DNA of 64,000 nt from NCBI RefSeq assembly GCF_001677475.2, contig NZ_CP015229.1; one strand, written 5' to 3'. The translations under genes and the position numbers were made by a program. The DNA is from Escherichia coli. GTDB lineage: Bacteria > Pseudomonadota > Gammaproteobacteria > Enterobacterales > Enterobacteriaceae. Below are positions 58,099-60,549 of the stretch, piece after piece (the first letter of the stretch is position 1; each line of letters opens with the position of its first letter). Below the pieces are notes generated by a model, which was not told where the DNA came from, ran no database searches, and saw only the letters and a list, made by a program, of their open reading frames with translations.

Positions 58099-60549
58099 TT
58101 AAAAATCAACCGGATTCGGGATCAGTTTTTGCCAGATTGCTGAAACGTATTTTGCCTGGTAACGAGCGTCATCAAGTGCATTATGGCGCTCACCTTCGAA
58201 TGGGATAGCTGTTCTGGCATCGAAGTCTATGGCTTTCCCCAGCTCAACGATTGTGCGTACATCGCGATCGTTGCAGTAGCGCCAAGGGCAGGGGATACCC
58301 TGTCGTTCGTATGAACGGCGTAAAATCACGTTGTCGAAGTTGGCCCCATTACCCCAGACCTGAACAAAAAATTCACCGGAGTTTTCGTCGATAAATTCCC
58401 GCAATTGCAGCAGTGCATCATCTAACGGGATTTCATCGGTCAGAATGGCAGATTGCGCCTCGCGTGATTGCTTAAGCCACCATTTTATGGTGTCACGATT
58501 AATGACTCCGCCAGCAGTTTCCAGATCGATGGTCTTACTAAATTCCGGCCCCATATCTCCGGTTTGCGGATCGAAAAATATTGCACCTATTGAGATAATC
58601 GGGGCATCGGGATTTTTTCCCATGGTTTCAAGGTCGATCATAAGATGGTCACATGACCTGCTTGTGGATGTGATATTGTGATAACCGTTCACCTTAATTA
58701 AGGGATCTGTTGCTTCGCCAGTTTCATTATCGCTGGCGTGATGCTGATTGCCTCCAGTGTTCTCCTTGTGTGGATGTTCAGCGCCTTCCATTTCCTCCGG
58801 ATCATTCTCCTGAGCTTCAACCTGATTCTCTTCATCGAATGTTTCCTGGTATGTTGCGTTTCCCATGACCGCGCCACAGTCAGGACAGTTGCCGCCGCTG
58901 CTCTGACCGCAGACGGTGCAGACTTTTTCCGGTTCCTGTTGCACTACTGGTTCGGATTGTTTCGTTTCTGGTTCGTTTTGTTGCGCATTTGGGCTGTTTT
59001 GTTCCGCTTTCTGGTCGTTCTGTGCCGTTTCTTGCTGGTTCTGGTTCACAGAATCGCGGGTTTCAATCCCCTTCACCCATTTCGGATCATTCGGGTCGCT
59101 AATCCCTGCAACAAATTCACCACGTGATGCAGCGAGCAACTGACTGGCGTCAGGCAGGCTGATATTGGCTGCCTGCATAATTTTGTTTACTTCGTCAGCG
59201 GTAACTTTTACCTGATTAACCGGATCTATCTGTGCCTGAGTATCCAGCGATTGCGTGTCCTGGCGAAGTTCAGTTGTATCCGGCTCCATTGCTTCAGTCG
59301 TTGCCTGTTCATCTGCCATTGCGTCAGACGGTTGTGATTTTTCATCATTATTTTTTTCTTCTTCTGTTTCGCGTTTAGCAGCCAGTTCGCGGTTAACTTC
59401 TTCCTGGATATCTTTTTCCGGTGTATGTCGTGCAGCAGCGAGAGTTTCTTCGGTAGGGTTCTCGTGATCAGTCTCCGTTAAGTGGGCGTTGATATACTCC
59501 TGAAGGCGTCCCGGGTAGAGATAAAGTTCAGGGTGAGCACTTCGGATAAGTGCAAAAATAGCGGCACGGGAATAATCCAGAATACCAGGGGTTGCGCGAA
59601 GTGCTGCGGACCATTCTTTGAACGGACTTTCTTTCTTCCGGACGACTTCTTTTGCGCGACGATAAACGCTGCCCGGAATTTCATAAATATTAAAATCCAT
59701 CGGAAGTGTGGCCGCTGCAATCTCCACATCCAGCGTATCGAAGGTGTGTACTAAATTCGGATTGCGATCGGTTTTGTTCCCGCCGCCAGCATTAGCACCG
59801 GAAGCCGTGCGGATGATGCGTGAAACACGATTCCCCTTCATCCACTCTTTTGTAAGCAGACCGCGATCGGTGTAGTCAGCGCCCAGGTATGCTTCGAAAA
59901 AAGCAGTCATCAGTCCCAGGTCTGAATTGCCAGGATTAGGGAAAACTTTGTCAGTGTCACGAACCAGTTTGTGGAGATCGCGAATTTCCAGCGGTTCGAG
60001 TTGCGCTGCTTTATTTGAGATGGCCAGCGCGGTAACGGCGGGAAGTTTTTCATCCTGTGCGTTATGTAATGCGCGCAGTTCGCCCCGCGAAACGTGAGTG
60101 ATCGGTTTTTCGCTGCCGTGCTGAGCAAGCCAGCGAATGGGAAGTATCTGGCCAGAAACCGGGAGTAGCATATTCTCCTCAATATCAGTCATGTCTTCGC
60201 CGTTGACGTTGGTATTGTCAGTGCTGGCTGGTTTATCCTGAACAGAGGGCGCGATAAATACCATTGTGATACCATCTTCCCCGCCTTTTTCGTATCGGTT
60301 GCAGAATTCGGTATCAAACACACCTTCCGGAGGCAGGTCATTCACAACGGGTAAATGGACGCGGACGGGTTTTTTAAAGTCGTCTTCATCATAATCGTTG
60401 TCATCCATTGCGGTAATACAACGGGAGATGGCAACAGATAATTTTTTTGCTGTGGTCCAGTAAAAACCACCTTTAATTCCCAGGCGTTTTCTGACTTTGT
60501 CATTTTTTGCTTCGCAATATAGCGCAAATTCTTCTTTTTCAGTGCTCAT
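58099..60549 (-). CDS. Large prophage protein: unknown N-terminal domain, acidic/Gln-rich low-complexity linker, CxxC-x9-CxxC zinc ribbon, C-terminal DnaQ-like (DEDDh) 3'-5' exonuclease domain
   Basis: 816 aa; exonuclease motifs IDLETMG (Exo I), [12 protein letters not shown] (Exo II), HNALDDARY (Exo III) in last ~185 aa (about 58102-58656); SD GAGG 7 nt upstream of ATG. Confidence 0.75.
   Translation of the reverse strand: [816 protein letters not shown]

What the first reader, a model, noticed from the sequence alone, without database searches (positions are those of the whole stretch)
58099..60549. 816-aa prophage protein combining an unknown N-terminal domain, zinc ribbon and DEDDh 3'-5' exonuclease, directly upstream of xis-int
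The sequence shows a single large ORF with good SD whose C-terminal ~185 aa carry the three DnaQ-family exonuclease motifs (D-x-E, Y/F-D-x3-L context, H-x4-D), preceded by a CxxC-x9-CxxC ribbon and a long acidic/glutamine-rich low-complexity linker. The position next to xis is where lambdoid phages carry accessory cargo rather than Red recombination genes (lambda Exo and RecE are PD-(D/E)xK nucleases, not DEDDh). A DEDDh nuclease here could plausibly act on host or competitor nucleic acids or on nucleotide second messengers, but that is speculation. I could not match the first ~400 aa to any family.
Basis: partly seen in the sequence, partly recalled or inferred. Interest (0 to 1): 0.6.

Follow-up and report, generated by a model that had tools for sequence, protein, structure and literature searches.

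The report
RecE-type prophage protein with swapped exonuclease
This very common E. coli prophage gene encodes the large N-terminal part of the recombination nuclease RecE joined to an unrelated 3'-to-5' exonuclease like phage T4 DexA; it is already annotated but nobody has tested its function.

Summary
The "unknown" N-terminus is not unknown as a family. Residues 1-619 match the NCBIfam RecE (exonuclease VIII) model, and residues 58-618 are 56% identical to K-12 RecE 50-591, zinc ribbon included. Homology stops where RecE's PD-(D/E)xK nuclease domain begins. A DexA/Rv2179c-type DEDDh domain (Pfam PF16473, E 5e-67) takes its place.

A relative, P0121, is 88% identical to RecE 1-592 and carries the same DEDDh domain, so this is a clean domain swap.

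In all nine DEDDh-type gene contexts examined the gene lies directly before xis/int, with no recT. The RecE-type loci examined carry a further gene (recT in three of four) and more genes between the nuclease and xis-int.

The two small upstream ORFs are DicB and YdfD, with a DicF-like sRNA further upstream. This is the left arm of a Qin-like prophage inserted in serT.

The DEDDh domain occurs in 4,062 of 5,426 complete E. coli genomes and is annotated "exonuclease".

Most likely it is an early-left-operon 3'-to-5' DNA exonuclease tethered to a RecE-type scaffold. The target is unknown. I found no support for defence or second-messenger roles. Moderate interest.

The parts
58099..60549 (-). 816-aa ORF: RecE-type N-terminal scaffold fused to a DEDDh exonuclease (stop codon 58099-58101)
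60557..60560 (-). GAGG Shine-Dalgarno sequence, 7 nt upstream of the ATG
   Evidence: read from the sequence
59425..60549 (-). Folded N-terminal module, aa 1-375: a small alpha/beta subdomain followed by a helical domain. Homologous to the RecE N-terminus (PF06630 hit at aa 57-187). Function unknown.
58651..59424 (-). Acidic, Gln/Asn-rich linker, aa 376-633, predicted disordered; also shared with RecE
59065..59154 (-). Conserved island inside the linker, aa 466-495 ([25 protein letters not shown]). It is the best-conserved stretch of the N-terminal scaffold (aa 1-630) in an alignment that includes both nuclease types. Candidate partner-binding motif (inference).
   Evidence: identity 0.54-0.70, occupancy 0.70
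58876..58920 (-). Zinc ribbon CxxC-x7-CxxC, aa 544-558. Present in K-12 RecE too, but in only about a quarter of family representatives.
58102..58650 (-). DEDDh 3'-5' exonuclease domain, aa 634-816 (D639, E641, D739, H789, D794), of the DexA/Rv2179c type
60640..60831 (-). ydfD (DUF1482 lysis protein, 63 aa), upstream in the same operon
60828..61016 (-). dicB (cell-division inhibitor, 62 aa)
   Evidence: NF049927, 117 bits, above the cut-off of 100
61196..61245 (-). DicF-like sRNA (44.1 bits, just under Rfam's gathering score of 48), in the same position as dicF in K-12 Qin
57781..58032 (-). excisionase gene
   Evidence: phrog_1266, E 6.5e-23
56793..57812 (-). tyrosine integrase gene
56592..56651 (-). 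3'-terminal 60 nt of tRNA-Ser(UGA) gene serT: the prophage/chromosome junction (att core)
   Evidence: 100% identical to K-12 up to 56651, then divergent
63632..63991 (-). DicA-like repressor at the head of the early-left region
   Evidence: NF007257, E 4e-15, below the cut-off

Best explanation
SHOWN. The gene is a natural chimera within the RecE (exonuclease VIII) family. It keeps the ~620-aa RecE N-terminal scaffold: a folded module (aa 1-375), a disordered acidic linker with a conserved short motif, and a zinc ribbon. The PD-(D/E)xK 5'-to-3' nuclease domain of RecE has been replaced by a DexA/Rv2179c-type DEDDh 3'-to-5' exonuclease with all five catalytic residues intact. The junction lies exactly at the RecE domain boundary. 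The recT annealase gene that follows recE in Rac and Gifsy-1 is absent; the gene is followed directly by xis-int. It is the last cargo gene of a Qin-like early-left operon (DicA-like repressor ... DicF-like sRNA, dicB, ydfD, this gene, xis, int) in a prophage inserted in serT.

INFERRED. It is transcribed with dicB and ydfD when the DicA-like repressor is lifted, that is, on induction. The C-terminal domain removes nucleotides from free 3' ends of DNA, as T4 DexA does. The RecE-type scaffold tethers that activity to whatever DNA end or partner protein RecE itself is tethered to. On this reading it is a stand-alone DNA-end trimming or degrading enzyme of the phage's early programme, not half of an exonuclease-annealase recombinase pair.
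For: Identity of the two halves:
- Pfam PF06630 plus PF16473.
- The RecE equivalog model NF007259 aligns aa 1-619 to profile positions 1-603 of 877, at 875 bits.
- BLASTP shows 56% identity to K-12 RecE 50-591 and nothing beyond.
- The review PMC11611040 places the RecE nuclease domain at residues 564-866 and calls the N-terminus 'of unknown function'.

Clean swap: P0121 is 88% identical to RecE 1-592 and 96% identical to this DEDDh domain.

Recurrence: among long representatives (clusters at 50% identity) of the N-terminal family, about 15 carry the DEDDh domain and about 22 carry the PD-(D/E)xK domain.

Catalytic competence: D639, E641, D739, H789 and D794 align with DexA D7, E9, D119 and the H-x4-D motif. 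The closest solved structure is T4 DexA, a DNA exonuclease.

Context: nine DEDDh-type loci (window, L001, L007/8, L009, L010, L011, L014, L015/16, LF82) all run small early genes, then the exonuclease, then xis and/or int, with no annealase. The RecE-type loci (Rac, Gifsy-1, L012) have recT immediately downstream.

Link to recombination: the closest stand-alone DEDDh homologue (59% identity) sits in the Erf-SSB-exo-anti-RecBCD module of mEp235. Zheng et al. 2025 report DnaQ-like nucleases in lambdoid Rec modules and also near int.

Operon: DicB, YdfD and DicF are laid out as in K-12 Qin. There is no convincing terminator between ydfD and int.
Against: No activity, substrate or phenotype has been measured for this architecture in any paper I could find.

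The Pfam family is named after an exoribonuclease. After DexA, the next structural neighbours are RNase T and oligoribonucleases, so RNA or short oligonucleotides cannot be excluded as the substrate.

3'-to-5' exonucleases usually inhibit rather than promote recombination (statement in PMC12315714). A positive role in recombination is therefore doubtful.

The function of the RecE N-terminal scaffold is itself unknown, and fold searches gave nothing informative.

Expression timing is inferred from the K-12 dicBF operon, not measured here.
Confidence: 0.55

Rival explanations
1. Anti-phage or superinfection-exclusion nuclease. The DEDDh domain degrades incoming, possibly modified, phage DNA, like the E. 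coli DexA homologue EcD ('HREX').
For: Kang et al. 2025 (PMC12153337) report that a stand-alone E. coli DexA homologue protects against T4 and cuts 5hmC-DNA. The operon neighbour DicB is reported to protect against phages (title and abstract of PMC6832061, listed). The gene is retained in 75% of complete E. coli genomes, often in several copies.
Against: The DexA residues proposed for 5hmC recognition are not conserved: W152 aligns with C759 and D169 with F776. The position whose loss marks the 'defensive dimer' form (D90) is retained as D711. EcD is a different, short protein that starts MIDTET and ends TIPETYD. There was no PADLOC hit. The gene sits in a repressor-controlled early operon, so it should be silent in lysogens (inference from the K-12 dicBF operon).
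Confidence: 0.15
2. Nucleotide scavenging. The enzyme degrades host DNA fragments or oligonucleotides to mononucleotides during lytic growth, which is the other known role of T4 DexA.
For: The closest solved relative is DexA, whose roles include host-DNA scavenging (abstract of PMC12153337). The gene is co-expressed with the host-damaging genes dicB and ydfD.
Against: Temperate lambdoid phages are not known to degrade the host chromosome (my own knowledge). A 630-aa RecE-type scaffold is unnecessary for a simple scavenging enzyme, and stand-alone 180-aa versions exist.
Confidence: 0.1
3. RNA 3'-exonuclease, like Rv2179c, RNase T or Orn. It would trim or degrade RNAs, for example processing the operon's own transcript or DicF, or degrading host RNAs.
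For: The Pfam family is named for an exoribonuclease. NCBI often names homologues '3'-5' exoribonuclease'. RNase T, Orn, REXO2 and ERI1 are strong structural neighbours. A DicF-like sRNA is co-transcribed.
Against: The best sequence and structure match is the DNA exonuclease DexA. Relatives of both modules sit in DNA recombination modules. The scaffold comes from a dsDNA exonuclease.
Confidence: 0.1
4. A functionless relic: an accidental deletion fusion in decaying prophages.
For: Clear deletion fusions do exist in this family. In P0126, a RecE N-terminus is joined to RecT residues 84-269 at 97% identity. K-12 ydfE is an IS2-truncated relative.
Against: The domain is at least 80% covered in 4,047 genomes. 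The same architecture occurs in about 15 clusters below 50% identity, with catalytic residues conserved in 7 of the 8 aligned sequences. The junction is always at the domain boundary.
Confidence: 0.05

Closest known systems
RecE / exonuclease VIII of the Rac prophage (and Gifsy-1 RecE)
   Same: The N-terminal ~600 aa are homologous: 56% identity to K-12 RecE 50-591, and relatives reach 88%. This covers the folded module, the acidic linker, the conserved LAASRGE...DPNDPKW motif and the zinc ribbon. The genome neighbourhood is the same: a Rac/Qin-type early-left operon ending at xis-int.
   Different: The catalytic domain is unrelated (DEDDh instead of PD-(D/E)xK) and has the opposite polarity. 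The protein scores 875 bits against the 1269-bit equivalog cut-off. No recT follows it.
T4 DexA (exonuclease A; PDB 8kel/8ken)
   Same: Closest solved structure and sequence for aa 636-812 (phmmer E 3.6e-6; Foldseek E 2e-7, TM 0.64). The DEDDh catalytic residues are the same.
   Different: Only about 21-26% identical. The window protein lacks DexA's inserted loops and helices. The residues proposed for 5hmC recognition and for tetramer formation differ. DexA is a stand-alone 227-aa protein of a virulent phage.
Stand-alone DnaQ-like/Rv2179c-like exonucleases of temperate phages (mEp235, PY54; epsilon34 per Zheng et al. 2025)
   Same: 54-61% identical to the C-terminal domain. They lie in the early-left region near xis-int. 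They are the probable donors of the domain (inference).
   Different: They are about 180 aa with no RecE scaffold. In mEp235 the gene is flanked by Erf, SSB and an anti-RecBCD gene.
EcD / 'HREX' defence exonuclease (Kang et al., NAR 2025)
   Same: An E. coli DexA-like DEDDh exonuclease.
   Different: A different short protein. Its defining residue pattern is not met here. Its defence role was shown for EcD only.
Mycobacterium tuberculosis Rv2179c (founder of Pfam PF16473)
   Same: Same Pfam family.
   Different: Rv2179c is a small stand-alone bacterial 3' exoribonuclease (Pfam family description; my own knowledge of Abendroth et al. 2014). It is not phage-borne and has no scaffold.
K-12 Qin pseudogene ydfE and the 'RecE-2' proteins of Zheng et al. 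2025
   Same: ydfE occupies the same slot after dicB-ydfD. Its residues 80-255 are 58% identical to an insert (Pfam YdfE_C) in P0159, a 901-aa member of this same family with a DEDDh C-terminus. Nuclease-less RecE relatives are reported in PMC12315714 and are also seen here.
   Different: ydfE shows no direct similarity to the window protein and is truncated by IS2.

Membership tests
RecE / exodeoxyribonuclease VIII (NCBIfam NF007259 equivalog) | N-terminal RecE region (Pfam PF06630; profile positions 1-603) | tested here: met
   PF06630 E 3e-26. NF007259 aligns aa 1-619 to profile positions 1-603. 56% identity to K-12 RecE 50-591.
RecE / exodeoxyribonuclease VIII (NCBIfam NF007259 equivalog) | C-terminal PD-(D/E)xK nuclease domain (Pfam PF12684/DUF3799; RecE residues ~564/606-866) | tested here: not met
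   No alignment beyond RecE residue 591 and no PF12684 hit. RecE-type relatives do have it.
RecE / exodeoxyribonuclease VIII (NCBIfam NF007259 equivalog) | Score above the curated whole-protein cut-off (1269 bits) | tested here: not met
   874.8 bits
RecE / exodeoxyribonuclease VIII (NCBIfam NF007259 equivalog) | Partner annealase gene (recT) immediately downstream | tested here: not met
   xis follows directly in the window and in eight other DEDDh-type loci. recT follows in Rac, Gifsy-1 and L012.
RecE / exodeoxyribonuclease VIII (NCBIfam NF007259 equivalog) | 5'-to-3' dsDNA exonuclease activity | not testable with these tools
   Requires biochemistry. The domain present predicts the opposite polarity.
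DEDDh (DnaQ-like) 3'-5' exonucleases, Rv2179c-like/DexA subfamily (Pfam PF16473) | Exo I (DxE), Exo II (D) and Exo III (Hx4D) catalytic residues | tested here: met
   D639, E641, D739, H789, D794
DEDDh (DnaQ-like) 3'-5' exonucleases, Rv2179c-like/DexA subfamily (Pfam PF16473) | Significant full-length match to the family profile | tested here: met
   PF16473 E 4.7e-67, model positions 2-177 of 177
DEDDh (DnaQ-like) 3'-5' exonucleases, Rv2179c-like/DexA subfamily (Pfam PF16473) | RNase H-like DnaQ fold | tested here: met
   In the AlphaFold2 model, most of aa 634-812 has pLDDT 79-94, with a dip to about 66-74 at aa 681-710. The top Foldseek hits are DexA, RNase T and Orn, all with probability 1.0.
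DEDDh (DnaQ-like) 3'-5' exonucleases, Rv2179c-like/DexA subfamily (Pfam PF16473) | 3'-to-5' exonuclease activity, and whether the substrate is DNA or RNA | not testable with these tools
   Requires an enzyme assay
HREX defence exonucleases (EcD type, Kang et al. 2025) | Conserved Trp and acidic residue equivalent to DexA W152 and D169 (5hmC recognition) | tested here: not met
   C759 and F776 at the aligned positions. The alignment is 26% identical, so the mapping carries some uncertainty.
HREX defence exonucleases (EcD type, Kang et al. 2025) | Loss of the D90-equivalent residue (dimer-only form) | tested here: not met
   D711 is retained; S87 aligns with P708
HREX defence exonucleases (EcD type, Kang et al. 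2025) | Protection against T4 or other modified-DNA phages | not testable with these tools
   Requires plaque assays
Lambdoid recombination (Rec) module as defined by Zheng et al. 2025 | Nuclease gene contiguous with an annealase, SSB or anti-RecBCD gene | tested here: not met
   The neighbours are dicB and ydfD upstream and xis and int downstream. The same holds in the other loci.
Known anti-phage defence systems (PADLOC-DB 2.0) | Match to any defence-protein model | tested here: not met
   No hits for this protein or five neighbouring proteins

The most novel reading that the evidence does not exclude
The RecE N-terminal region (function unknown for decades) is a portable, nuclease-agnostic targeting platform. 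Through its folded module and the conserved LAASRGE...DPNDPKW motif in the disordered linker, it docks onto a specific host or phage partner or DNA structure. Evolution has mounted nucleases of opposite polarity on it. The annealase-free DEDDh version, the commoner form in E. coli, would then not be a recombinase. It would be an antagonist that erases 3' single-stranded tails, blocking recombination-dependent replication or annealing by competing phages, or tuning the prophage's own induction.
Probability: 0.2. Interest if true: 0.6.

Novelty: new variant of a known kind. Interest (0 to 1): 0.38.

Why it matters
RecE is a workhorse of recombineering, yet two thirds of the protein has no known function. 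Its only reported effect is enhanced linear-linear recombination by the full-length form (review PMC11611040).

Nature has kept that scaffold and exchanged the nuclease for one of opposite polarity, dropping the annealase. The exchanged form is present in about 75% of complete E. coli genomes, against about 32% for the K-12-type RecE nuclease domain.

This gives a ready-made comparative experiment on what the scaffold does. It also singles out an abundant, intact, uncharacterised nuclease in pathogenic E. coli prophages.

It is not a new kind of system. The gene is already annotated as "exonuclease", and it matches existing Pfam families and PHROG exonuclease families over most of its length.

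Tried and rejected
1. Intact K-12 ydfE. I guessed the ORF was the intact form of the K-12 Qin pseudogene ydfE, which sits in the same slot. Direct BLASTP found nothing. The refined picture is that ydfE matches an insert (YdfE_C) in another member of the family, P0159. It is therefore a truncated variant relative, not an orthologue of this sequence.

2. A third C-terminal effector type. I looked among N-terminal homologues that lack both nuclease domains. Pfam found only PF06630, plus two RecT 'fusions'. P0126 joins its RecE N-terminus to RecT residues 84-269 at 97% identity, so it looks like a recE-recT deletion fusion; P0177 was not examined as closely.

4. Defence role. No PADLOC hit, and the HREX residue test failed.

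5. LF82 'moron'. A 'putative exonuclease' expressed in LF82 lysogens belongs to the P2-like prophage Cartapus. LF82's copy of this gene sits in a Qin-like prophage arm (ydfA-C, dicB, ydfD) next to rspB, so I took it to be a different gene. That paper therefore gives no evidence that this gene is expressed in lysogens.

6. The gene downstream of the RecE-type P0146 is not RecT and falls in a PHROG family of unknown function. The contrast 'RecE type always has recT' therefore rests on three clear cases.

7. Literature. Three searches were wasted because 'RecE' as a word-start also matches 'receptor', or because of term syntax. None of the searches I ran returned a paper on this fusion architecture.
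Full report
**Observation**

The window holds an uninterrupted 816-codon ORF on the minus strand at 58099-60549. A GAGG ribosome-binding site lies 7 nt before the ATG.

The C-terminal ~180 residues carry a complete DEDDh set: D639-x-E641, F738-D739-x3-L743 and H789-x4-D794. Pfam PF16473 (Rv2179c-like 3'-5' exoribonuclease domain) matches them at E 4.7e-67.

The region between aa ~376 and 633 is acidic and Gln/Asn-rich and is predicted disordered.

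The excisionase and integrase genes follow directly.

**What the N-terminus is**

They belong to RecE.

- Pfam PF06630 (Exonuc_VIII) matches aa 57-187.
- The NCBIfam RecE equivalog model aligns aa 1-619 to its positions 1-603 of 877. The score is 875 bits, below the 1269-bit cut-off because the last third is missing.
- BLASTP against K-12 RecE gives 56% identity over aa 58-618, equivalent to RecE 50-591. This stretch includes the zinc ribbon ([20 protein letters not shown] in RecE) and much of the linker. Nothing aligns afterwards.

A review places the RecE nuclease domain at residues 564-866. [quoted passage not shown]

The protein is therefore a RecE scaffold whose PD-(D/E)xK domain has been exchanged for a DEDDh domain at the domain boundary.

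**The swap is clean and recurrent**

A search of 1.84 billion representative proteins with aa 1-620 found only 263 clusters, so this is a narrow family.

Among the long members, about 15 end in the DEDDh domain and about 22 end in the RecE/Gifsy-type PD-(D/E)xK domain.

P0121 is 88% identical to K-12 RecE over residues 1-592 and 96% identical to this DEDDh domain. P0123 shares 83% identity with the first 260 aa of the window protein but ends in a Gifsy-type nuclease. The modules have therefore been shuffled repeatedly.

Members with neither domain show no other Pfam effector. Of the two RecT 'fusions', P0126 looks like a deletion product.

**Structure**

AlphaFold2 models aa 1-375 confidently (mean pLDDT 89.5 for the 1-420 construct). 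It shows a small alpha/beta subdomain followed by a helical domain.

The full-length model shows beads on a string: a folded N-module, a ~250-aa disordered linker, and a folded DEDDh domain.

Within the linker, aa 466-495 ([25 protein letters not shown]) is the best-conserved stretch of the N-terminal scaffold (aa 1-630) in an alignment that includes both nuclease types. It looks like a partner-binding motif; this is inference. The zinc ribbon is present in only about a quarter of family representatives.

The DEDDh domain superposes best on T4 DexA (8kel), then on RNase T, Orn, REXO2 and ERI1.

**Context**

- The window is identical to K-12 through yccA and the 3'-terminal 60 nt of serT (56592-56651) and then diverges. 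A prophage is therefore integrated in serT.
- Its left arm, all on the minus strand, runs in this order:
  - a DicA-like repressor;
  - a RelB/RelE-like pair;
  - three unknown ORFs;
  - a DicF-like sRNA (44.1 bits, just under the Rfam threshold);
  - dicB and ydfD;
  - the exonuclease gene;
  - xis and int.
- This mirrors the K-12 Qin order dicA, ydfABC, dicF, dicB, ydfD, ydfE, intQ. In strain LF82 the same chromosomal Qin site carries dicB, ydfD, exonuclease, xis, int.
- K-12 ydfE is not similar to this protein. It does match an insert in P0159, another DEDDh-ended family member, so it is the IS2-truncated remnant of a variant.

**Absence of an annealase**

In nine DEDDh-type loci from diverged lineages the gene is followed directly by xis and/or int, and no RecT, Erf or Bet gene is nearby.

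This includes P0121, whose prophage otherwise looks like Rac (SieB, KilR, YdaE).

RecE-type genes in Rac, Gifsy-1 and L012 are followed by recT and several more genes before xis. One further RecE-type locus (L013) has a non-RecT gene of unknown family in that place.

The exchange therefore removed the annealase together with the nuclease domain.

**Where the DEDDh domain comes from**

Stand-alone ~180-aa homologues (54-61% identity) occur in temperate phages. In mEp235 the gene lies between SSB and an anti-RecBCD gene, downstream of Erf and a few genes before xis-int.

Zheng et al. (Genome Res 2025) report three relevant things:
- DnaQ-like 3'-5' nucleases occur in some lambdoid Rec modules.
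- Sporadic DnaQ-type genes lie near int; the authors do not count these as Rec-module members.
- There are 'RecE-2' proteins that lack a nuclease domain.

The same authors note that such nucleases usually inhibit recombination. They do not describe the fusion.

**Prevalence**

The identical protein is in NCBI as 'exonuclease [Escherichia coli]'.

| Domain | Complete E. coli genomes with a match (of 5,426) | Places |
|---|---|---|
| DEDDh domain (DNA) | 4,062 | 8,092 (up to 7 per genome) |
| K-12-type RecE nuclease domain | 1,736 | 1,827 |

The protein matches several PHROG exonuclease families (phrog_607, 2082 and 20376), each over most but not all of its length.

**Defence hypothesis**

Kang et al. 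(NAR 2025) solved the DexA structure. They reported that a short E. coli homologue, EcD, protects against T4 by cutting 5hmC-DNA.

EcD is a different protein: its cloning primers show that it begins MIDTET and ends TIPETYD.

In the window protein the residues aligned with DexA W152 and D169 are C759 and F776, and the D90 equivalent is retained. By that paper's own criteria it is not an HREX enzyme.

There is no PADLOC hit for it or its neighbours.

**Mechanism**

Shown: the chimeric architecture, the intact catalytic site, the operon position, and the lack of an annealase.

Inferred: expression on derepression together with dicB and ydfD; 3'-to-5' degradation of DNA ends; and tethering through the RecE-type scaffold.

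I rate this at about 0.55. The rivals are:
- exclusion or defence (0.15);
- nucleotide scavenging (0.10);
- RNA trimming (0.10);
- functionless relic (0.05).

**Verdict**

This is a real, abundant and already annotated gene that has not been studied experimentally. It is a domain-swapped variant of RecE, not an unknown-domain novelty and not demonstrably a defence gene.

Interest is moderate. The natural swap offers a handle on the long-unexplained RecE N-terminus.

Noticed in passing
window 56592-56651: The 3'-terminal 60 nt of tRNA-Ser(UGA) gene serT. The window is 100% identical to K-12 up to this point and then diverges, marking the prophage junction. ARAGORN finds no complete tRNA here, so the intact serT copy must lie at the far end of the prophage, outside the window.
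   Followed up: yes
window 61196-61245 (-) and 61039-61184 (-): A DicF-like sRNA scores 44.1 bits, just under Rfam's gathering score of 48. An STnc100-like match (38 bits, threshold 47) lies between it and dicB. The placement matches dicF in K-12 Qin.
   Followed up: partly
window 63117-63404 (-) and 63405-63662 (-): A RelB-family antitoxin (NF050103, 84.6 bits, above the cut-off) and a RelE/ParE-like toxin (weak, 22.4 bits). They sit inside the early-left region just downstream of the DicA-like repressor gene (63632-63991).
   Followed up: partly
window 61785-62204, 62208-62462, 62495-62851 (all -): Three conserved phage ORFs of 139, 84 and 118 aa. They fall in PHROG families of unknown function (phrog_1363, 1744, 21318) and have no NCBIfam or PADLOC match.
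   Followed up: partly
window 59065-59154 (-), aa 466-495 of the ORF: A short peptide island ([25 protein letters not shown]) inside the disordered linker. It is the most conserved part of the N-terminal scaffold (aa 1-630) and is shared almost exactly with K-12 RecE. It is a candidate docking motif with no known partner.
   Followed up: partly
L005 5079-5999 (K-12 ydfE) and P0159: Residues 80-255 of the K-12 Qin pseudogene ydfE are 58% identical to an insert (Pfam YdfE_C, PF27432) in P0159, a 901-aa protein with Exonuc_VIII, YdfE_C and Rv2179c-like domains. ydfE therefore looks like the IS2-truncated front half of a variant of this exonuclease family.
   Followed up: yes
P0137 (locus L010 6001-8259): One diverged DEDDh-type family member has lost two catalytic residues (E replaced by K in Exo I, D replaced by A in Exo II). 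It may be an inactive derivative that retains the scaffold.
   Followed up: no
L013 7565-8380: In one RecE-type locus the gene immediately after the exonuclease is a 271-aa protein of phrog_3657 (unknown function). It is not RecT and may be an unrecognised annealase type.
   Followed up: partly
window 56557-56583: A strong bidirectional terminator-like hairpin (11 bp stem) between yccA and the serT fragment. It is chromosomal sequence, identical to K-12.
   Followed up: no
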